Assembly: GCA_951406725.2 (NCBI GenBank)
Contig: OX597816.1
Span: 102,796,001 to 102,860,000, forward strand
Source: Octopus vulgaris
Taxonomy: Eukaryota
Direction of reading: 5' to 3'
DNA length: 64,000 bases
Both the position numbers and the translations under genes were made by a program. The notes below the pieces were generated by a model. That model was not told the origin of the DNA. It did not search any database and saw only the letters and a program-made list of their open reading frames with translations. Of this stretch, positions 3,657 through 62,680 are shown piece after piece; positions within the stretch are counted from its first letter, which is position 1; every line of letters begins with the position of its first letter.

Positions 3657-4295
3657 CTTAAAAAATTATGCACACTAGTTGAAATCAGTCATCCAATAGA
3701 TGTTAACATGGTGTTAAAGATTAGTTAAAAAAGGAAACATCTATGTCGAACTAAAGAAATCTACAATTACTCAGTACTGTCAATAGTTTTCGATTATCAT
3801 CAATGATTAACAGAGCACTTGGATATGCGTGACAAACTTTCTCATTACCAATCTTCAGTGACTACACGGCTCAATCGAAACATTACAGCCAAAAGCTATT
3901 TAAAGCAATGTCAAAATGTGTAAATTATTCAATAATGTTAGCGTTTAATGAGATCCACATATGCAGTGACATCCAAGTCTGCAAGCACGTGTACAAGTAC
4001 ACATTACATGTGTGTGAATGTGTGCGTGTGATTGTGTGTGTGTGTGTGCATGTATGCGTGTATGTGTATGCATGTATATACGTGTGTGAGTGTGTGCATA
4101 CATATCTGCATGCATACGTATGCAGATTCAGCCATCCGTCCATCTATCCATCCATCCATCCATCAATCCATCCATCCATCTTTTCGTTAACATGACCATC
4201 CATTCTTCCAGTGAGTCAGTTAACCAGTCATACATACATATCAAATTTAGAGCCATTTAATGAATATACATATATATATGTGTATACAGTATATA

Positions 4296-4596
4296 AGGTG
4301 GCGAGCTGGCTGAAGCGTTAGCACGCTGGGCGAAATGAATGAATGAATGAATGACTGAATGAATGAATGAATGAATGGATGGATGGATGGATGGACGGGC
4401 GGATAGCTGAGTCTGCATTTTGTCTGCCGCTACGTTCTGAGTTCAAATTCTGCCGAGGTCAACTTTGCCTTTCATCCTTTCGGGGTCGATTAAATAAGTA
4501 CCAGTTACGCACTGGGGTCGATATAATCGACTTAATCCGTTTGTCTGTCCTTGCTTGTCCTTCCTGTGTTTAGCCCCTTGTGGGTAGTAAAGAAAT

Positions 4597-4597
<1 letters not shown>
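4296..4597 (+). mobile_element. SINE family A copy interrupted by an ~80 bp insert (4338-4418)
   Basis: Near-complete family A consensus; a (TGAA)n(TGGA)n-containing insert replaces part of the head. Confidence 0.88.
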
Positions 4598-4627
<30 letters not shown>

Positions 4628-4789
4628 CACACTGTATATAAATGAAGCTAAAGATGGAAAGCGCCTGAAAACAAAACAAAGTTTTACATATTCAAATGTC
4701 ATTATACATAATTTATATGTCCACGTGATATGAAATTTTGGCTTCGGAAATTAGGACAAAATTAGCATAGTTCAATCAGTTATGCACCT

Positions 4790-5007
4790 TAGGACTCACA
4801 GAGCCGGGATTTTACTCGGTTTCTTAGGCCTTTAAGTGAACGAAACCCCGGCCCATCATAGGTTTAACTTCTAGCTACTGTTGGACCTGGCTTATAAATG
4901 GCTGGACTGGAACAACGTGAATTGAAGTGATTTGCTGAAAAACACAACACACTGTCCGGGAATTGAAACTCCGATCATACGATCGGTCACTAACCATTAG
5001 GCCACGA
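4790..5007 (-). mobile_element. Decayed tRNA-derived SINE (family C-like)
   Basis: Minus strand CGTGGCCTAATGGTTAG ... GTTTCAATTCCCGGAC ... TGTGTT ... CACGTTGTTCCAGTCC. Confidence 0.6.
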
Positions 5008-5400
5008 AACATCAGAGTTTGTATAGTATTTGCAGTCAAACTAAACATAAATTGGTTTTCTGTTTTGGTTGCTTCAGAGTATCTGCGACGTTTTTTTTAT
5101 CAATGTGTATTCCACCAGCAAAATTCTGTTACTATTGTTTTTGTCGCCTCTGAAGATATCAGATGTAGTTTTTATTTTTATGGACCGTTGACTACATGAA
5201 ATATGAATTTCATGGTCAGAGGTGACAGGAATAGATTATATATATTTATATCTTTTTTTAAAGTATAGGACATGATTAAATTTTCAAGTGATTCTAAAAT
5301 CTGTCTTTCATTTGAACCCTCAACTAAGCGCTATTCACAAAAGAAGATATCTGTTTATCTTTCTGTCTCACTTTCCTTCTCCTTCTTTGTCTCTCTCTCG

Positions 5401-10921: not shown

Positions 10922-11077
10922 ATATTTGTGTGTGTGTGTGTGTGTTTGTGTGTATGTGTGCATGTGTAAGTGTGTGTGTGTGTGTGTGAGTATGTTGCTG
11001 TCAATTTTTCAAAATATATTATATACGTATTCATATACATACATACATACATACATACATATGATTGATTGATTGAT

Positions 11078-11143
<66 letters not shown>

Positions 11144-11199: not shown

Positions 11200-11243
<44 letters not shown>

Positions 11244-11439
11244 TTCAGATGAATATGGTACTTAAGTTTAGGCAAAATCGCAGAAAACCTTGGGTTCTCG
11301 CTTTGTAATAGGGTGAGTGTGCAATTCACTAGATAATGGAAGGAGTTCACATCACCTTCCCGAGGTCGATCAGGTCCTCTGATAGAACCCTTTGCTTCGT
11401 TAAGTGAAGTGTGGAGGATAATCCTCATTGCAAGGCCTC

Positions 11440-11950
11440 TGACATAGCAAAAAAAGTTGATGTCAATCCCTGAACAGCTGTCAGGTATCTCTACAAACTT
11501 GGTTACTATGACAGAGCAGCAAGAAGGAAGCCACTTCCCCAACCTGCCAATATCAAGTGGAGAAAAGGTTGGACCAGTGAGATGAACGACCAGAGCATTT
11601 TGGCATTGTGGAACACTATCATATTCTCTGACGAGTCCAGATTTGCTGTATTTTCTGACAATGGTCGAGCGTGGGTTTGGAGACTGATGAAGAATTTGAC
11701 ATGAAAAGATTGCTGCCAACAATGAAACAAGGCAGCTATTCTGTAATGGTTTGAGGAGCAATTTGTACCAACTGGTGGAGTGTGATGGAAACATAAACTC
11801 AGATAAATATGTGTCCATATTGCAGAAAAGACTCCTTCCAATCTTCTCCAGTGGTGAAATAATTGAAGAAGATACTTTATTTATGGAAGGTAGGGCCCAT
11901 TGTCACGGGGCTAAAAAGACCCAAGACTGGTTGGAAAAGAATGGATAGGT
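11440..11950 (+). mobile_element. Tc1-like transposase fragment (pseudogenised)
   Basis: RAARRKP...WNTIIFSDESRF (~11610-11644), LPTMKQG..VMV*GAI, LVECDGNINSDKYVSIL...HGAKKTQDWLE. Confidence 0.85.
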
Positions 11951-12660
11951 AAAATTTGTCTGCTTCATTGTTTCTAGGGTTGTACGTTGATACCAATGGT
12001 AGTGTTTTGAGATGTGGTGTGGTGTTACATTTTGTTTCCCTTAGTATTTTAAGGCCTAATTTCTTGGCACGCTTAATTCCATCGTCTATAAGTAAGGGTG
12101 GATATTGTCCCTCAGTTAGTGTTGTTCTGAAGTCTTGAAGACGGAGTTCCTGAGTATTTCTATCAGACACTATTGTGCAAATCATCTCTCTCTATATAAA
12201 CGGCAGTTTGTCTGTGCGTGTTTCTGTGTGTCTGTTTGCTTGTACCCTCACCCTGACCACGGCTTTCAACCGATTCTGATGAAACTTGACACACACATAG
12301 CCCAATGTCATAATTCAAAACTAACGCAGCGAAAATTTTGAAAAGTTCCCCCAGTTCTGAAAAAAATCGATAAATTCGACATGGGGTCGAGAATCAGGAA
12401 TACGAACCACAAACTGTCTAGGGGACGCAACTCTACCTTTTTTAAATCTCAAAAAAAAATTTACCATCATTTTTTTCCATTTTTTTGCTATAATTCTCTA
12501 AAAATGCTTTATAGTTATTTCCCTTACAAACCTGAGCAACGCCGGGCGATACTGCTAGTTTTTATTAAATAAAAGGGGATATTCCCTTTTGATGTGAGCT
12601 AAACAGAAGATATTGTTTCGAGGACGTTGGCTTATGATAAATGACAGTTACGTAACTGAC
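11951..12660 (-). mobile_element. Penelope-like element RT C-terminal fragment, split by a Helitron insertion
   Basis: IYHKPTSSKQYLLFSSH..NIPFYLIK (12560-12655) continues as MICTIVSD...QYPPLLI...LPLVSTYNP (12184-11975). Confidence 0.82.
12185..12558 (+). mobile_element. Non-autonomous Helitron (374 bp)
   Basis: 5' TC (TCTCTCTCTATATAAA), 3' hairpin CCTGAGCAACGCCGGG then CTAG, inserted between A and T with no TSD. Confidence 0.85.
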
Positions 12661-20020: not shown

Positions 20021-23000
20021 TCTTTCTTTTTGAGATTTCGACTACTGTGAGAAAGTGGAATTGCTTTTATTTGTTTCTCTTTCCAGCACCTCACCCTCAT
20101 GTTTTTCTTTTTAGCTGCTCTACCTTAATTGTTACTCGATTTTAAAGGTAGTATTGTTCGTTGCACACAGCACTTTTTCTTTTCGTTGTACTAAGTACTC
20201 TTGTTAGCACCTTAGGTCTTTTAGCTTTTGAAAATTTAATATCTTTTTCGTTTAGGTATTACTTCTAGATATTCAGTTAGTTTTCGTTTTCTGAAGCTAG
20301 TTCTACTGGGTTCAATATCTCTCGTTGCTGACACTTCAAATATATCATAGAAGATCTCCATTGGTATAACCCTTCGTTCTTCTGTATGTTTCATCTTTAA
20401 CTATTAAAGGTGTATCTTATATTTCGAACATTGTCCATTAATTAAATACATCATGTTACCTAATCTTTTGATCACATAACCGTCCTCCAAACCTTCTTTA
20501 CCATTTTTGTAATTTTTAAAATGAACTTTATCTCTTATTTCGAAATGTTTTGTAATATTTCTTGTATTTCCTTCAAATATATTTTTTGTCTTTCCTGTAT
20601 ATGGAGTTTTTTCCTGGCAATTTATCGAAAGTCGATATTATTTTACGCGCGAACATTAACTCTGCTGGTGACTTCCCTGAATTAGTATTTAGATTTGGCA
20701 TTATTCTATATACTCTCAAAAATTTAGTTAGTGTCTCGTCATTATCAAGCTCGTTCTTAGTTTTTTTAGAGCTCTTTTGAACGTGTTGACAAATCTTTCC
20801 ACTTGCCCATTTGACCTCGAGTGGTAGTACCCTGGGGGTAAAGATGTGCTTTATGGCATGTATTTTGCAGAAATTTCTTCATTCATATCCTGCGAATTGT
20901 GTTCCGTTATCTGAAACTAACGTGGCAGGTATCGAGTAGGAATTTTATTGTTGTCTTTGCTGTGGATTTATTACATCTGCATACCTCTGGCCACTTTGTA
21001 TAGCTATTCACAACAATTAGATAGTATGCACTGTTCACTAGCCCAGCGTAGTCAATATGAATCCTGGACCATGGGCTCTCATTCTCCTGTCACTATTGGT
21101 ATTTTACTGGTGTTGGTTTGGTTGCCAACGCGCAACCTCTACATGCTTTCACCAATTTCTCGATGTCCCTGTCCATAGTCGGCCAATATACAAAGCTCCC
21201 CATTAAAAAGTTTCATTCTGGACATACCCGGGTACCCACAGTGGAATTGTTGCAATACTTGTTTCTGTAGTGCACTTAGTACTACTATTCTCTGCACGTA
21301 CATTAAGACATCGTCGCATGGTGAGAAAATATTTGAACTTGCATTTTTACTATGTCAATTTTTCAATGTTTCTTTCATTCTTGTAATGTAACTATCCTCT
21401 ACAGATTTCATTTTTATATCATGCGCTGTCACCGGCACTTCCTGGATTATATTACACACAATACTTCCTAGTTAATTTTCTGACTGTAATGACACTATCA
21501 CGGGCTCTTCCAGCAGTTCTACACTTTTGGGAGTTAGACTTAATAAGCAGTGGGACTAATTTTCTGCATCTTAAAATTGTAGTTCAGCAATATTGTACCC
21601 CAGCGTTGCAGACGGTTCGCTGTATGTATATACAATCCCTTCTTTGATCCAAAAATCGATAGTAATGGTCGAAGGTCGGTTTGCAACAAAAAAAAACCTA
21701 AAAAACTTCTATCATGTAGAAATTTGTGAAATCTTTTTACCGCAAAAATAATCGATAGAGCCTCCTTCTCTATCTGACTATACTTTGTTGCGCTGCTATC
21801 ACTGAAGTATGCACTACTGGCTTCATATTTCCATCTTAATACTTGTGTAGCAAGACTGCTCCTGTTCCATACTTCGAAGCATCAGACGCTACAACAATGT
21901 CCATTCTAGGATCGAAATGCGCTGATGACCAGTCAGAAATTAGTATTTTCTTTATGTCTTCAAATGTGTTTTGGCACTTTACTGACCAATTCCATTTTAC
22001 TTCTTTTTTTAAGAACTAGTTTAATGGTGTTCTCAATTTATGTATATTTGGAATGTACTGTTGATAGTAATTTACGAGGGCAAGGAAAGCTTGCAACGCC
22101 GGTATATTCGTTGGAGGAGGCATATTCTTGATTGCATCTGCCGTCAACGGGTCAGGACGTCTTCCATTTTTAGCTATGATTTGACCTAAGTATTTGATTT
22201 TAGACAAAAATATCCACACTTCTCTTCATTGAGTGTGAAACCACAATCCTTAATGTTTTTAAAGACACACTTCACGTGTTCCATATGCTCATTACACGAT
22301 TTGCTTTTGGTTAACATGTCATCAAGATAAAGAATAGCAAATCGACAATATAGCGTCCATCACATATTGAAATATTGCAGGTACAATCTTCAGGCCAAAA
22401 AGTAGTCTATTGTATTTGCGTAGACCTCTGTGCATGTTGGCCGTTTTTTTTTGATCTGTAGTTATGCGTTCAACAGATCGAGTTTTGAAAATACTTTTCC
22501 TCCGTTTAGTTTTGTAAAAATATCTTCTAGTGTCGGTAGTGGATAATGGTTCATTTTTAAACAGTCATTTAAACCGGTCGAAAAATCGGCACACAACCTA
22601 ATTTTTTTTCTTTTTTTATACATACAGTCGGAGCTGCCCATTTCGCATAATCTACTTTTTCAACGATTCCGTTTTTTTCCAATTTGTCCAACTCATCGTC
22701 CACTTGTTTTATTGCCGCAAAACGTACTTTCCTATTAGGCTTGAACATAGGTGTAACGTTATCATCTAATTCAAAATACGCTTCAGTCTTTGTGCACAGA
22801 CCTGGTTTATCCGAGAATACTTGCGGAAACATTAAACAAAAATTTCTCTTTAACTCTTCTGACGAATTATTTTTAGATGGATAACCATTTGTGTTTTTAC
22901 AATATAGGTTTATGGGGCGGTCCTATAAATCGAATAATTCTAACCAATTGGTACCAAACTGATCGGCTGCATTTTTAATGACGAAAACTTTCGCTTTGCA

Positions 23001-24220
23001 TGTTTTCCCTCGAAATATGACATTAGTCCACATTTCGCCTATGAAATGTAATTTGTCGCCCGTCACGCTACGAGCAGATTTCTCAACATAGGTTTCCCTA
23101 TTTTCTTCCATGTGTCAATATTTATTATTGAAATATCACTTCCATTATCCAATTGAAGATTAATATGTATTCCATTTATTTTAACATGTACGAATTTTCT
23201 TATTTGGGAGTCCATTTTTGTTTCTGCTGAAACAAATCCCATTCTAGGATTTTTAACGTTTGACTTTCCTAATTTTGTTCTGCAGTGTGAACTTTTGTGA
23301 CCAATTCTTTTACAACTGTAACATTTTTGATTTTTATACGGGCAGTTTTTTCTCAAATGTCCCCCATCCATAGCATGGATTAGGACGTGGCGCTCTTTTT
23401 TGGTTGTACATTTCTAGTCGGCATATCTATATTTTTGAGGAATCCTCTTCTTGAATTTTTTCTACATCGTGTTTCGGGTTTAACATCCTTTGGCATTTTT
23501 CTGCCACGGACTTTAAGGTTAGAACTTGGTTCGCTTGTTCCAGTTTAGAAAGAATTTTTGCCGAATTTCTGTATCTTCGCTTGCTGTAAGGCCTTGTACG
23601 AAAATAAGACACTTGAACATCTCAGGTGTAAGTTCTTTGAGTTTAAAACTATCTCATCCTGTTGACTGTTCCTACGTATGTGATAAAATCATCATCCATT
23701 TTCGTTATAGTCCAACACGCCATTCGAGTGTTAAATAGAGAAGTTTTATCACCGAATATGTTAGACAGTAATATTATGATTTCTTTAAAACAAATTTGAT
23801 TAGGTTTTTTGGGGGATACTATGAAATTAAAGTAAAGTTCATGCTCTAACGGAGCTAATTTTCGCAATAACAATCTCACTTTTTGTTCTTTCGACCATGA
23901 TTTGCAGTCGTGCTTAAAAATCTCCTCGTACCTTCTGTAGTACGATGCAAAAGTTATACCCTCCTCTGGGTTATAACTGAATTCATTAATCGAGTTCGAA
24001 ACATCGTCTGGCGAAATCGAGCTTACCTCATTTTTGGACTACTTTGAATATAGTTCGAATAATTGTTGTTATAGTTGTTGCTGTAATAGCTAATTCTGCA
24101 ACTCCTGTTGCTGCTCTTGTTGTTACTTTTGTAACTGTACTATGGAAGCTAATAGGTCTTCCATTATTTAACAAGTTGTATCCCGAACAAAATGTTAAAT
24201 AACCTACGTGAGCTTCGAAA

Positions 24221-33525: not shown

Positions 33526-34139
33526 CTTATAATTGAGAGGACCCGATTCAGAAGCAAGCGCTACATGCTATTGTAGAAAAATTATATATTCATGAGGTGT
33601 AATTAAATAACAAATTAATTATTCAAGATGGTCACTCTGTGAAGTCTTCTGTGAGATGAGAAAGTATGAGAAAATAGACTAGTCTCGTTTCATTCTAAGG
33701 AAGAGATATATAGTATAGCGACCATAATACTATAATACATTCACCTTCATTCCACTGTGTATGATTGTGTCAATATATGAAGAAGCAAAATGTTCAAAAT
33801 TGATTTTAAAATATTGATCTATAAAATTATGTAAAATTGGATAATAATAATCAGATGAGCATAACATATAGAGTGTGCACTTGAGCTCATAACTGGCGTG
33901 CATGTGATGTTAGTGTTCGAGCGAATGAAAGTATTTCAGTTCACAACCATGTTAGGATTCATAGAAAGTTGAAGTTGTTAAAGAGTAATATGAAGAGACA
34001 GAAGAAAGAAAGGGGAAAATAAAAAAGAGAAAGAAAAAAGAAAAAGAAGAAAACTAGAAAGTGATGTTTAGAAGAAAATGAGAGAAAAGAAGGAGAGAAG
34101 AAGTGGGGTAAAGTTATTCTCGAAGGTAGTTTGCGGGCC

Positions 34140-34370
34140 GGAGTCCGGACTTTCCAGTGAGTTAGTATGTTCTCGTGAGTATATATTGTAAAGATTTCAT
34201 TTTTGGAAGTGAGACAGGTATCAATTGAGGCGTTTTTATTTCTTAGAATTGTGCCTTCTCCGTTGCATATTCTGCATTTCTTGCCCAATTTATATATGTC
34301 TAGTCTTTCGACTATTTTCCATTTCATGATATATTTAATCGTTATGTCGTAGTTCTTCTCTTTTTCGAGT
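34140..34370 (-). mobile_element. Penelope-like element C-terminal (GIY-YIG region) fragment
   Basis: KWKIVERLDIYKLGKKCRICNGE...LTSKNEIFT resembles the PLE W.I....Y.....C.LC..EK...LN.R.E motif. Confidence 0.7.
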
Positions 34371-34739
34371 GATAGAAAGATAGATAGAAAGATTACAACT
34401 GGCTATAAACATTATATTGGAATTACCACCACGTCATTCATGATTCAGAGCGTTTAGGTGAACAACTGACAAGATATAGTATACATGATTTAAAGAACAT
34501 TTATCTCTTTTTATACATGAAGATTTGGGCCATCAAATTGTTTGGGTTTCTTTTTATATGTTTTTTGTGATTTCATGTTTGGAAATTATTTTAACTGTAT
34601 TGTACAAGGAAATACCCGTTTAGAATGGCCCAGAGATAGCTTACCTTAATTTTAGCGTTTAAAGTGTAAAGAAGTGAGAATAAAATAATTTTCTTGTGTC
34701 TATATTTAACTCAATGAATGTATCTATCAATCAATAAAT

Positions 34740-36534: not shown

Positions 36535-37985
36535 TCTCCTCGGCTGATGTTTGTGCCGAAAGTGACTTTGGAGTCCAAGTCGGTGGTGAAAAAATCATGG
36601 GAAGAAATCGGACGGGATGGTCTGTGCAGGGCGAGGATGTTGGAGACGCTCCTTTCTTCTGCATTTTGCTTCCTAATTCTGTTGGTTGTTCTGCTTGAAG
36701 GAGCTAGCTCCATTGCAGATAGCAGTCCTCCAGGCTTTCCCATCCATGGCAATCTGTTCCCATGAGGATAGCTCGATTTTAGCTTGAACCAAAGTCCGTC
36801 TGAGCTGGTCTTTAAAACGGAATTTCGGACCTCCTCTGGGTCTTGTTCTGATTGCAAGTTCTCCGTAGAGCATGATCCTTGGGAGACGAGAGGGCTCCAT
36901 ATGCTGGATGTAACCTGACAGCGGAGACGATGGCTTCGACACTTGGAAGTAAGGCGCAGCGAAGAACCTCGTTGTTGGTAAAGTGATCTTTCCTTTGTGT
37001 GTTGAGAATCTGTCGTAGCTTCGATTGCTGAAAAAATTCAAGGCGCTTGAAGTCACAGCTGTACAACGTCCAAGTCTCACAAGCGTAGAGATGGTAGGAC
37101 AATAGCACAGAAGACCATGATCTTTGTCCGGATGGTCAGCGCGTGATTGAAGAACACACGTTGGCTGAGTCTGTCGAAGGCGGAGTGGGCCGTCCCAATC
37201 CGGTTCTCCACGTCCTTTTCACACGTGGAGGTCTTCGAAAGGATACTTCCAAAGTATGTGAAGTGTTCAACTTCTAGGGGTTGGCCGTTGATGCTAATGT
37301 TTGTGGGGGACTGTTCTGGTCTGGTACAGGTTGGGTCAGTGTCTTGATCTTTAATATGTTTACCTGCATCCCGAAGCGTTCGTAAACCGCATTGTAAAGA
37401 TCGGCCGTCCTTTGTAGGCCATCTGCGGTCCGGCTCGGTGTGGTATTGACGTCGGCATACTGCATCTCACAGACTGAAATGGCGGAGGTCCTCGTCTTTG
37501 CACGATGTGCGAGATTGAAGAGTCCGCCATCCAAGCGATAGTGCATGTTGATGGAAGATGAGTTTAGTGGGATTTCGTTGAACATGGTGGTCATGTACAA
37601 AGAGAAACAGTTTGGTGACAGGACGCATCCTTGCTTAAGACCCCAGTGATGGGACGTGTCTTTGTTGGTCCACGAGTTGCGTTTTGATGGCAAGACTAAC
37701 TCAATGGATGCGTGGTTCATTAGGATTCTTCCCCTTCCGAAACATGGGGTATTTGGAACCAGCTTCTCTGATGCTGCCTACTCTGAGAAGCCTAGCCTCG
37801 CTCAAGGGTGCCACGTCGATGTTGAAGCAGGCAAGTTCCTTGCTGACGAGGGCTGTACGTCGCTCTGGTCGATTTATGTCTTTCTTGTCCTGGAGAGTGC
37901 GATTGTTCCAAGCCCCGAATGTGAGAGGTTGTGGAACAGAATCATTGGAACACACAGGTTCTTCCACCACGGGAAGGGACGATCA
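36535..37985 (-). mobile_element. RTE-clade LINE, internally deleted (APE start fused to RT)
   Basis: LTFGAWNNRTL..RPERRTALVSKELA..DVAPLSEARL, then GLKQGCVLSP, YRLDGGLFNL, YAD, LYACETW, RLPRIMLYGEL. Confidence 0.92.
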
Positions 37986-60458: not shown

Positions 60459-60960
60459 GTTTAGTCTTTATATCATATCAGATAAGAGCATAGGTAATTT
60501 ATATGTATTACAATGCCTATATACTTCTGCATGCATATAAATACATACACACATATATACATATAAACACACATATATATACATATATATAGACACACGC
60601 ACGTATATATACATATACACATATATATAAACACATATACATATATGGGTATATATATATATATATTAGGGAGTAAATCCAAACTTACAGGGAAATATTA
60701 GATTTAGGATTAAATCTAATTTTATAGTATAAATATATATATTATATTATATTAAATTAGAGATAAAACCACTATTAGGCAAATCAAACAGTGAAAATCA
60801 TAAGCCAATACATATAAATAAAATTAATTAATAAAATATATAAAAAATATAAAATATAGAATTCCAAATTAAAATATTTAAATTAAAGTTAAAATTAAAA
60901 AAATTATTTAAATCAATAATTTAAACTTATAAATTTTAAAAATATATATATATATATATA

Positions 60961-61020
60961 TGATTGATTGATTGATTCTAGTTTCAGCTCACGAGCTGTG
61001 GCCATGCTGGGGCACCGCCA
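60961..61020 (-). mobile_element. Extreme 3' tail of a LINE or SINE with (AATC)n tail, inserted in the left arm
   Basis: Minus strand TGGCGGTGCCCCAGCATGGCCACAGCTCGTGAGCTGAAACTAGAATCAATCAATC. Confidence 0.75.
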
Positions 61021-61120
61021 TTATATATATGTTTTATTATTATTTTATTTAATTAATTAATTTTTTTTTAAATATATAACTATCAAAAAGTATTAAAAGC
61101 TTAATATAAGATAAAGAGTA

Positions 61121-61222
61121 AAACCACTACGATCGTTTCATGCCCGTAACCAATTCGAATAACAATAATTTAAATTCAATTAATATTTCGAATTATGGTT
61201 ACAATCAATCTTCAGGTTAATT
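61121..61222 (-). ncRNA. Hammerhead-ribozyme-like motif (left arm)
   Basis: CUGAAGA, long stem II (GUAACC..AAUUCGAA / UUCGAAUU GGUUAC), GAAAC GAUC GUA; stem I weak. Confidence 0.5.
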
Positions 61223-61921
61223 GTAATATTTTAATAAATAATCAGAAATATTTAAACAATATTTTTTAAGAAAGAAATAATATAATATTTTTTCTAATAA
61301 AAAACTCTATTATCAGACTAGAAACTTAACGATTATGATTATGTCAAAACATCGATTATAATGTTAAATATTAATTTTAATTTTTTAAGTATTAATTTTT
61401 AAGGTAAGAAATCCACCAATAATCTAATATCAGTTATAGTCAATATCTAATTACATAAATATTTTACAGAAAAAATGACTATTCATATTATTAAAAATAT
61501 AATATTTAAATAATATATAAATTATATATTATTTAAATATAAATATTTAAATAATATATAAATTATTAATGAAAATATATAAATGTATATAAATATTAGA
61601 ATTAAGATCTAAAATTATCTCTATAAATAAATATATATGCACAATAATAAAGACCTAATAAATTAATTATTCATATTACTAATATTTATGTAATTAGATA
61701 TTGATTATAACTGATATTAGATTACTGGTGAGTTTCTTACCTTAAAAATTAATACTTAAAAAATTAAAAATAATATTTAACATTATAATCGATGTTTTAA
61801 CATAATCATAATCGTTAAGTTTCTAGTTTGATGATAGAGTTTTTTATAATAAAAATTATTATATTATTTATTTCTTAAAAAATATTGTTTAAATATTTCT
61901 GATTATTTATTAAAATATTAC

Positions 61922-62023
61922 AATTAACCTGAAGATTGACTGTTACCATAATTCGAATTATTAATTGAATTTAAATTATTGTTATTCGAATTGGTTACGG
62001 GTATGAAACGATCGTAGTGGTTT
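61922..62023 (+). ncRNA. Hammerhead-ribozyme-like motif (right arm)
   Basis: CTGAAGA 61929-61935, GAAAC 62005-62009, palindromic GATC loop, GTA 62014-62016; stem I weak. Confidence 0.5.
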
Positions 62024-62358
62024 TACTCTTTATCTTATATTAAACATTTAATACTTTTTGATAGTTATATATTTAAAAAAAAAATTAAATTAATTAATAA
62101 TAATACTATATATATATATATATATATATAAAATTTATAAGTTTAAATTATTAATTTAAATAATTTTAAAAATTTTAACTTTAATTTAAATATTTTAATT
62201 TGGAATTTTATATTTTATATTTTTTATATATTTTATTAATTAATTTTATTTCTATGTATTGGCTTATGATTTTCACGGTTTGATTTGCCTAATAATGGTT
62301 TTATCTCTAATTTAATATATATATATATATATATATATGCATATGTCTATACACACAC

Positions 62359-62680
62359 AGTGGTTAGACCGTCAAGTTTACGATCGTGAGTTTGTGAGCT
62401 CAAATCCCGGACCAGGCTGCGTGTTTTGTTCTTGAGCAAGACACTTTATTTCACGTTGCTCAAGTTCACTCAGCTGTAGAAATGTGTTGCGTCGTCACAG
62501 GTGCCAAGCTGTGTCGGCCTTTACCTTTCCCTTGGATAACACCGGTGCCGTGGAGGAGGGAGGCCGGTATGCATGGGTGACTGCTGGTCATCCAAATACA
62601 AACTTGCCCGGACTTGTGCCAGGGAGGGTAACATTCTAGGTACAATCTCATGGTCTGTGTCGTGACAGAAGGGGGTCTCA
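62359..62680 (+). mobile_element. tRNA-derived SINE family C
   Basis: AGTGGTTAG..CTCAAATCCCGGAC..TTCTTGAGCAAGACACTTTATTTCACGTTGCTC..CACTCAGCTG. Confidence 0.82.

What the first reader, a model, noticed from the sequence alone, without database searches (positions are those of the whole stretch)
60748..62319. 1.57 kb AT-rich palindrome with a hammerhead-like ribozyme core in each arm
Seen: two ~640-715 bp non-coding arms in inverted orientation around a ~217 bp spacer, bounded by (TA)n. Each arm has CUGAAGA, a long imperfect stem II, then GAAAC-GAUC-GUA (plus strand 61929-62016; minus strand 61215-61128), so a transcript from either strand carries one core. Stem III is minimal with a self-complementary ACGAUCGU. 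Established: Penelope-like elements and retrozymes carry minimal hammerheads with palindromic stem III loops that can act as dimers, and Penelope terminal repeats can be inverted. Inference: this may be a non-autonomous foldback retrozyme-like unit mobilised by Penelope RT (PLE fragments lie at 11951 and 34140). A read-through RNA would form ~640 bp of dsRNA that masks the core and could be an ADAR or siRNA substrate. Caveat: stem I (AAUUAAC / GUGGUU) pairs poorly, so this copy may be inactive.
Basis: partly seen in the sequence, partly recalled or inferred. Interest (0 to 1): 0.75.

Follow-up and report, generated by a model that had tools for sequence, protein, structure and literature searches.

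The report
Back-to-back Penelope ends; ribozyme cut footprint
This mirror-image sequence is two truncated ends of a Penelope-type jumping gene joined head to head, a known layout; its sister copies are the useful part, because about four in ten begin right after the ribozyme's predicted cut site, which likely means this weak-looking ribozyme cut its RNA in the living animal.

Summary
The palindrome and both hammerhead cores are real. It is not a foldback retrozyme unit. It is a 1.66-kb insertion (60663-62319) in (TA)n of two 5'-truncated pseudo-LTRs (pLTRs) of a Penelope-like element with Hydra-clade motifs. The 'spacer' is unmatched pLTR of the longer left arm, which alone carries the tail. 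The arms differ by 4.6% but share a private 1-nt insertion (0 of 51 other copies): one event, no assembly artefact. A full-length relative (L045) has pLTR-tail-ORF-pLTR-tail. Other palindromes have variable junctions. Family evidence bears on open questions. (1) 40 of 94 copies start at -2..+8 of the predicted cut, none at -3..-27, although stem I has only 2 firm pairs and folding models disfavour the active form. (2) In a young sister subfamily 35-36 of 79 copies carry a spliced leader, so the template was sense RNA. (3) 24 of 26 sister palindromes have the tail on one arm only. (4) This subfamily lost both intron splice sites, which likely explains its long arms. The scan noted such palindromes before, here and in other genomes. 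Cleavage is untested at the bench.

The parts
60650..60662 (.). (TA)n target, left flank
   Evidence: sequence
60663..60740 (-). PLE 'tail', about 75-80 nt: the sequence that follows the 5' pLTR and leads into the ORF; present on the left arm only; marks the inferred distal RT start site
   Evidence: 96-99% to the tail of L007 and L045; lies between pLTR and ORF in L043-L061
60741..61677 (-).
   Evidence: maps to positions 4153-5225 of the L045 unit; duplication
60961..61025 (.). Later 65-bp insertion (48% GC) of an unrelated repeat end into the (TA)n inside the left arm
   Evidence: gap in arm alignment; 38-nt match at window 11043-11080
61128..61215 (-). Type I hammerhead core of the left arm; predicted cut after 61128
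61677..61684 (.). Head-to-head junction of the two 5'-truncated ends; AT-rich, about 4 nt ambiguous
61681..62319 (+). Right arm: shorter 5'-truncated pLTR copy starting about 333 nt upstream of the predicted cut, ending at the pLTR end without tail (inferred proximal RT start site)
   Evidence: maps to positions 4320-5225 of the L045 unit
61911..61917 (+). Dead splice acceptor of the pLTR intron (AG in sister subfamilies, AA here); the arm sequence upstream of it is retained intron
   Evidence: alignment A1; acceptor use shown by spliced sister copies
61929..62016 (+). Type I hammerhead core of the right arm: CUGAAGA, 68-nt stem II, GAAA, palindromic ACGAUCGU, GUA; predicted cut between 62016 and 62017
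   Evidence: copy 5' ends pile up just after the homologous position
62315..62337 (.). (TA)n target, right flank
   Evidence: sequence

Best explanation
The palindrome is a head-to-head pair of 5'-truncated pseudo-LTR copies of a Penelope-like retroelement in a (TA)n tract, likely built in one insertion when both nicked target strands primed reverse transcription on the same sense RNA. Shown: both arms are pLTR of an ORF-bearing family; only one has the tail; they share a private insertion. Inferred steps: (1) a promoter in the pLTR starts a transcript at an initiator-like site about 1.05 kb upstream of the ribozyme; (2) the element's RT-endonuclease, probably a dimer, nicks both strands of (TA)n; (3) one strand primes at the pLTR end and the other at the tail end, and both cDNAs run toward the RNA 5' end, the second presumably displacing the first; (4) the two cDNA ends join by microhomology. 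The cDNAs stop at random, at the transcript start, or at an RNA end made by the hammerhead. At this locus both arms run through the ribozyme, so its template was uncut. Across the subfamily about 40% of sampled copies start just after the cut site, which I read as in vivo self-cleavage, probably as a dimer or with protein help (about 0.75 for this step alone). The arms are long probably because this subfamily lost both splice sites of the pLTR intron. The palindrome is a by-product, not a replicating unit.
For: Full-length structure pLTR-tail-ORF-3'UTR-pLTR-tail plus a small inverted 5' piece in L045; L007 joins this pLTR to an inverted RT fragment. Sister elements with open 821-862-aa frames share the tail. 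Arms are 4.6% apart over 390 nt, all 18 differences private, with one shared A insertion absent from 51 of 51 other copies. 9 of 9 head-to-head pairs agree at the GTGG/GTGT allele. In the young subfamily 26 pairs among 79 matches: tail on one arm only in 25 by script, 24 after correcting one false pair; stem III allele agrees in 24 of 24 scorable pairs. 13 of 28 top hits start within 45 nt at the initiator-like site. Cut-site ends: of the first 94 of 203 matches to an anchor at +8..+29, 40 end at -2..+8 (11 at -2..+2), 0 at -3..-27, 10 at -28..-100, 44 beyond; 37 of 91 after removing 3 duplicates, p 1e-29 against a uniform spread over -100..+8. Cut-ended copies are scattered over the subfamily tree (65 rows). 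One contig of run X2 leaves the family sequence exactly at 62017. Spliced leader joined at GT..AG, with a second donor 4 nt further on used in some copies; 0 of 34 junction matches carry genomic sequence upstream of exon 1. Donor GT>CT (L048 keeps GT) and acceptor AG>AA in this subfamily; no spliced copy of it among the loci fetched. Literature: nicking and extension of both strands, two internal RT start sites bounding the tail, predicted dimer, protein-assisted hammerhead (PMC11167929); inverted 5'-truncated copy and one-sided tail (PMC8557442).
Against: Folding models disfavour the active fold of this motif: 14-15 kcal/mol above the ensemble as a monomer against 3.5-7 for short sister motifs, and 6-8 per monomer as a dimer against -3.6 to +2.3. 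28 of the 40 cut-class ends lie at +6..+8, at the edge of my anchor and at the first TA, so microhomology and anchor choice shape that peak; a control anchor at +33 also shows ends at +10..+33 (4 of 18 after setting aside 12 composite-repeat copies, read by eye). The young subfamily, with the better-looking ribozyme, has fewer such ends (11 of 79, only 1 exactly at +1; Fisher p 1.4e-4), which I cannot explain. Frangieh et al. found no RNA-seq reads ending at the anole cut site and no strand difference in RT start site. One RNA versus two RNAs from one source locus is not resolved. No intact ORF of this exact subfamily was found among 20 long loci fetched. The tree has weak support (14 of 62 inner branches starred; 29 of 94 copies lacked the second block and were left out).
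Confidence: 0.85

Rival explanations
1. Same origin, but the ribozyme of this subfamily is dead; the pile-up of 5' ends comes from RT stalling at the foot of the large hairpin or of a competing helix that spans about -3..+9, followed by TA microhomology joining.
For: The GU-allele motif is predicted to pair its upstream A/U tract across the cut site, and the active fold is 13-15 kcal/mol uphill in the long-stem motifs. 28 of 40 ends are at +6..+8. The subfamily with the long hairpin has more such ends than the short one.
Against: 11 ends sit at -2..+2 and none at -3..-27; the -1/-2 cases are explained by A or TA shared with the flank, and L189, L207 and an X2 contig break exactly at +1. A stall would not be expected to respect the scissile bond. 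The young subfamily shows the same step (11 ends downstream, 1 in the 43 nt upstream).
Confidence: 0.2
2. The second arm was copied from the first arm's cDNA or from an antisense read-through RNA by self-priming (Arkhipova et al. 2013), not by a second target-primed event on sense RNA.
For: Arms share private and minority alleles, which fold-back copying also predicts; the model was proposed for such palindromes (PMC3846280).
Against: Many young palindromes carry the spliced leader in both arms, which needs a sense, spliced template. Here the two arms end at different 5' positions with unmatched family sequence between them, and each outer end sits at one of the two family start sites. Fold-back copying of a first cDNA is not fully excluded.
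Confidence: 0.15
3. A non-autonomous foldback retrozyme-like unit that is transcribed and retrotransposed as a whole palindrome.
For: Palindromic copies are common: 9 pairs in the first 100 core matches; 26 pairs in 79 matches of the sister subfamily.
Against: Junctions and spacings differ from locus to locus (152-1671 bp; 35-14736 bp); none of the 28 other top hits repeats this locus's junction; no tandem hammerhead monomers among the first 100 core matches; the sequence is the pLTR of an ORF-bearing element.
Confidence: 0.03
4. Assembly foldback artefact.
For: No contig of 4 public runs was shown to bridge the junction with 31 letters a side (the piece table was cut).
Against: Arms differ at 18 of 390 sites, one holds a 65-bp insertion, the tail and 214 extra nt.
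Confidence: 0.01

Closest known systems
EN+ Penelope-like insertions with inverted pLTR and optional tail (Adineta vaga Pen2a/Pen2, PMC3846280, passages; overview PMC8557442, passages and section 11)
   Same: 5'-truncated inverted copy next to a pLTR, tail on one end, initiator-like motif in the pLTR, partial tandem full-length copies, microsatellite target
   Different: Tail about 75-80 nt rather than 30-40; pLTR about 1.4 kb; no ORF in this insertion; spliced copies show a sense template, whereas PMC3846280 favoured an antisense one
Hydra clade of C-terminal EN+ PLEs (Craig et al. 2021, PMC8557442 section 11)
   Same: DKT, CxCX5C linker, CxxC and CxH around the EN end, no GxKF/Y, (TA)n targets, hammerhead
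   Different: Unit 5-6.3 kb rather than under 3 kb; RIKWK rather than RWK; phylogeny against named Hydra proteins not run
Minimal PLE hammerheads, incl. the Drosophila virilis variant (Cervera and de la Pena 2014, PMC4209133, parts 1-2 of 4)
   Same: Type I, palindromic helix III, short helix I (2 bp in D. virilis), intron end next to helix I, opposite-strand pairs 100-700 bp apart already noted in Schistosoma
   Different: No G10.1-C11.1 pair (U-U here; A-U, U-A or A-A in sisters); stem II grown from 16 to 68 nt within the family; that paper had no in vivo evidence of cleavage
PAc Poseidon element of Anolis (Frangieh et al. 2024, PMC11167929, parts 1-2 of 4)
   Same: Two RT start sites bounding a tail, both strands nicked and extended, AT-rich targets, uncut RNA is a valid template
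   Different: Here the hammerhead lies upstream of the ORF in the 5' UTR; genomic copies show ends at the cut; the two start sites are split between the two arms of one insertion
Animal non-LTR retrozymes (bioRxiv 10.64898/2026.07.22.740005, part 1 of 5; PMC7229834, search listing only)
   Same: Type I hammerhead related to PLE pLTRs, non-coding insertion
   Different: Defined by head-to-tail tandem units each with a hammerhead; not seen in the sampled matches

Membership tests
EN+ Penelope-like element insertion | Sequence is the terminal repeat of an element with one RT + C-terminal GIY-YIG ORF | tested here: met
   L045 structure; RT and EN motifs read in P0001. Pfam itself did not recognise the ORF
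EN+ Penelope-like element insertion | Partial tandem forming pLTRs; inverted 5'-truncated copy | tested here: met
EN+ Penelope-like element insertion | Tail at one end only | tested here: met
   window left arm only; 24 of 26 sister pairs; longer than the published 30-40 bp
EN+ Penelope-like element insertion | Spliceosomal intron in the pLTR/5' UTR | tested here: met
   GT..AG intron of about 1.8 kb with spliced copies in the sister subfamily; both sites mutated in this subfamily
EN+ Penelope-like element insertion | Target-site duplication | tested here: inconclusive
   both flanks are (TA)n
Hydra clade | DKT, CxCX5C, CxxC and CxH motifs; no GxKF/Y | tested here: met
   DKT 129, CTCRDKSNC 692, CYLC 798, CRH 827, no G.K[FY] in sister ORF P0001; its N-terminal RT part is about 90% identical to the fragment joined to this pLTR in L007
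Hydra clade | RWK motif | tested here: inconclusive
   RIKWK at 42
Hydra clade | (TA)n insertion and hammerhead | tested here: met
Hydra clade | Generally shorter than 3 kb | tested here: not met
   unit 5.3 kb in L045 (with inserts), period 6.3 kb in L055; a tendency in the paper, not a strict criterion
Hydra clade | RT phylogeny groups with named Hydra families | not tested
   reference proteins not fetched; supplements of PMC8557442 not read
Type I minimal PLE hammerhead | CUGANGA, GAAA, NUH core kept while surroundings vary | tested here: met
   core nearly invariant in 16 motifs with stem II of 16-68 nt
Type I minimal PLE hammerhead | Palindromic helix III for dimers | tested here: met
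   third pair G-C 11, A-U 3, G-U 2 of 16; related sequences, so not independent events
Type I minimal PLE hammerhead | Helix I of 4-5 bp and G10.1-C11.1 | tested here: not met
   2 Watson-Crick pairs plus a possible U-G after a bulge; U-U at 10.1/11.1; sisters have 3-4 bp
Type I minimal PLE hammerhead | Self-cleavage after NUH | not testable with these tools
   indirect footprint only; folding models unfavourable
Non-LTR retrozyme | Head-to-tail tandem units, each with a hammerhead | tested here: not met
   0 same-strand core pairs within 5 kb in the first 100 of 200 matches
Non-LTR retrozyme | Circular RNA intermediate | not testable with these tools
   no raw RNA reads served
Foldback unit copied as a whole | Dispersed copies share both arms and the junction | tested here: not met

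The most novel reading that the evidence does not exclude
The genome holds a fossil record of this element's RNA life cycle. A hammerhead with a 2-bp stem I and 68-nt stem II, which folding models call dead, cut about 40% of the templates in vivo, more than its canonical-looking sister, so cleavage depends on dimerisation or the element's protein. Each inverted insertion was made by one RT dimer using the two start sites of one sense RNA on opposite target strands. The pLTR intron is spliced only next to the cap, which would explain intron retention in Penelope elements without an antisense template.
Probability: 0.4. Interest if true: 0.7.

Novelty: new member of a known kind. Interest (0 to 1): 0.5.

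Why it matters
The locus itself is an ordinary relic. Its family gives countable genomic evidence on three points that the papers I read leave open: whether PLE hammerheads cut in vivo (PMC4209133 had no in vivo evidence; PMC11167929 found no reads ending at the cut; PMC8557442 calls the function unclear), whether the template is sense or antisense RNA (PMC3846280 favoured antisense), and how inverted pLTRs form. A young sister subfamily with many open 820-860-aa frames and over 1,000 copies offers material for an in vitro test. My searches found no paper reporting PLE copy ends at the hammerhead cut, or hammerhead-bearing Hydra-type elements in octopus. Subscription papers and supplements were not seen, and Lunse et al. 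2017 is recalled only.

Tried and rejected
Rfam scans: no hammerhead model matched this motif or the short sister motif. Pfam did not recognise the PLE ORF and found only other retroelement pieces in 35 window ORFs (3 of 35 with hits, no host gene family), so no host transcript context was established. Idea that splicing switches the ribozyme off: rejected, the spliced young form folds slightly better toward the active state (3.5 against 5.3 kcal/mol). Idea that a cap-derived extra base marks the transcript start: every candidate junction was ambiguous. Idea that cut-ended copies are a separate sublineage: not supported by the tree. Idea that gene conversion keeps the arms alike: they are about as far apart (4.6%) as from their nearest relatives (3.5-4.8%). 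The third test printed (17 of 20) used provisional numbers and is discarded; one search replaces it. double-counted pairs and crashed; one search is the valid run. In one search the script classed L143 as unspliced although it shows the spliced leader (hence 35-36 spliced, 26-27 unspliced). In one search one L174 match was placed at -11; exact matching puts it at +6.

Full report
Observation. The window lies in a 2.8-Gb genome (G000:C3:102796001-102860000); the scan's earlier notes call it octopus, a label I did not test. The inverted repeat is real: 61061-61463 pairs with 61681-62083 at 96%, and 60729-60965 with 62102-62338 at 92%. Each arm holds CUGAAGA, a 68-nt stem II region, GAAA, ACGAUCGU and GUA at the coordinates given. 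No Rfam hammerhead model matches. The arms differ at 18 of 390 sites and the left one carries a 65-bp foreign insertion, so this is not a foldback assembly error.

What it is. A 201-bp query gave 1,521 first-look candidates, with the 40 scored at 93-97% apart from the self hit. L007 joins the same sequence to an inverted RT fragment. Searching with that fragment gave 150 scored matches, many with open frames of 820-860 aa. Among 20 long loci, L045 shows pLTR, tail, ORF (broken), 3' UTR, pLTR, tail, with a small inverted piece at its 5' end. The sister ORF has RT motifs, a C-terminal GIY-YIG-type region, DKT, CxCX5C, CxxC and CxH, the marks that Craig et al. give for the Hydra clade (PMC8557442 section 11). 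I did not run the phylogeny, and the unit is longer than the sub-3-kb elements described there. The locus is therefore a long minus-sense pLTR copy with tail, head to head with a shorter plus-sense copy without tail, in (TA)n. That layout is published for Penelope-like elements.

One event, not a unit. The arms share a 1-nt insertion found in none of 51 other copies, and two minority alleles. In the first 100 of 200 exact core matches there are 9 head-to-head pairs 152-1671 bp apart, all 9 concordant at a common two-state allele, and no same-strand pair within 5 kb (by hand). In a young sister subfamily (1,170 exact anchor matches) 79 consecutive matches form 26 head-to-head pairs; 25 have the tail on one arm only by script, 24 after correcting one false pair seen, and 24 of 24 scorable pairs share the stem III allele. 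Junctions differ at each locus. Palindromes are thus built at insertion. The fit with the anole element, which nicks and extends both strands, starts at two sites bounding the tail and is modelled as a dimer (PMC11167929), is close; that the two sites serve opposite strands of one insertion is my inference. At 2.3% per arm and the calibration quoted in PMC13282606 (JC 0.09 = 25 million years), the insertion would be roughly 6 million years old; this is a rough inference.

Template. In the young subfamily 35 of 79 copies by script (36 by eye) carry a leader of up to 23 nt joined to the base after the genomic acceptor; in full-length copies that leader is followed by a GT donor about 1.8 kb upstream. 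None of 34 junction matches carries sequence upstream of the leader. These are cDNAs of spliced sense RNA run to its 5' end, which argues against the antisense self-priming model of PMC3846280 for this family. In the window's subfamily the homologous donor reads CT (GT in sister L048) and the acceptor AA. No spliced copy of it was found among the fetched loci, and 13 of 28 top hits begin within 45 nt at the leader. This likely explains why its stubs are up to 1.4 kb while the sister's mini-palindromes are a few hundred bases.

Ribozyme. Across 16 motifs the core is nearly invariant while stem II ranges from 16 to 68 nt; 90% of cells in the named structure pair, and the third stem III pair, which cannot close a 2-nt loop in one molecule, is G-C, A-U or G-U in all 16 (related sequences, so the shuffle control is not a probability). 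This fits the dimer mode of PMC4209133. In the window's subfamily stem I has two firm pairs, 10.1-11.1 is U-U, and the active fold is 14-15 kcal/mol uphill as a monomer and 6-8 per monomer as a dimer. Yet copy ends say otherwise. Of the first 94 of 203 matches to an anchor 8 nt after the predicted cut, 40 end at -2..+8: 3 at -2, 1 at -1, 3 at +1, 4 at +2, 1 at +3, 28 at +6..+8. The -1 and -2 cases share A or TA with their flank. None ends at -3..-27, 10 end at -28..-100 and 44 run further. After removing 3 duplicates, 37 of 91 remain (p 1e-29 against uniform). These copies have unrelated flanks and are spread over the subfamily tree (65 rows, weak support). One X2 contig breaks at 62017 exactly. 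Against this: most ends sit at my anchor's edge and the first TA; a control anchor at +33 shows further ends at +10..+33; and the better-folding young motif has only 11 of 79 such ends, 1 exactly at +1. RT stalling at a competing helix is the main rival. The sharp edge at the scissile bond favours cleavage, at about 0.75. Both arms of the window's copy run through the ribozyme, so this insertion came from uncut RNA, which the anole work also found usable.

No RNA evidence was obtainable and no host gene family was found in 35 window ORFs.

Comparison and verdict. It works like, and by the tests listed is, an inverted-pLTR insertion of an endonuclease-bearing Penelope-like element, probably of the Hydra clade. 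It is not a retrozyme as defined by tandem hammerhead units. I looked at the scan's notes only after forming this reading: several describe the same architecture in this and other genomes, one notes ends at the RNA start and cut site in another genome, and one gave me the lead to PMC3846280; they are unchecked notes, not support. Papers seen: PMC11167929 parts 1-2 of 4; PMC4209133 parts 1-2 of 4; PMC8557442 abstract, passages and section 11; PMC3846280 and PMC13282606 passages; the 2026 retrozyme preprint part 1 of 5; no supplements, which may hold end maps or octopus Hydra families. Novelty: new member of a known kind. Interest 0.5, carried by the family-level record of cleavage, splicing and twin priming rather than by this copy.

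Noticed in passing
L093, L094, L097-L099, L109-L111, L113-L116: 12 of 30 control-anchor hits are one composite repeat that captured the post-cut fragment of this pLTR behind a shared (TG)n-containing flank and spread it.
   Followed up: no
L044, L046-L051, L053, window 61936-62003: Stem II grows from 16 to 17, 19, 38-39, 44 and 68 nt across related subfamilies while stem I shrinks from 4 to 2 firm pairs; the base of stem II covaries.
   Followed up: partly
L127, L214, L251: Spliced copies that used a second donor 4 nt downstream, independent support that the leader junction is made by splicing.
   Followed up: partly
run X2, loose end at window 61913: A contig joins the exon-1-like leader of this lineage directly to the acceptor position behind (TA)n, probably a spliced insertion of a close sister subfamily that kept its splice sites. 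The run's RNA status is a guess.
   Followed up: no
L058, L059: Young-subfamily copies with a mutated first donor (GA for GT) and a shorter intron, about 1.15 kb: splice-site loss may have happened more than once.
   Followed up: no
L045:1350-1420 and window 60961-61025: The same unrelated repeat end is inserted, apparently independently, in a (TA)n inside the pLTR 3' part in both loci.
   Followed up: no
P0001 residues about 490-600: Long asparagine-rich stretch inside the open ORF, like the N-rich inserts reported for Adineta Penelope ORFs.
   Followed up: no
L032:113 (-), L049:840 (-), L023:2313 (-), L005:1014 (+): Other hammerhead families in this genome with different palindromic stem III octamers; one has a C-C-G-A core variant.
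   Followed up: no
window 33962-34402 (-): Decayed endonuclease C-terminus resembling another Hydra-like PLE family (E 1.6e-6 to the L005 protein).
   Followed up: partly
window 21543-24038 (-), 37277-37777 (-), about 11200-11900 (+): Pieces of an LTR retroelement (RNase H-like, DUF7083), an RT fragment, and frames that look like a Tc1-type transposase by eye (label recalled, not tested).
   Followed up: no
window 62365-62460: Immediately right of the palindrome lies a GC-richer repeat that contains the same ACGATCGT octamer (62381-62388); not examined.
   Followed up: no
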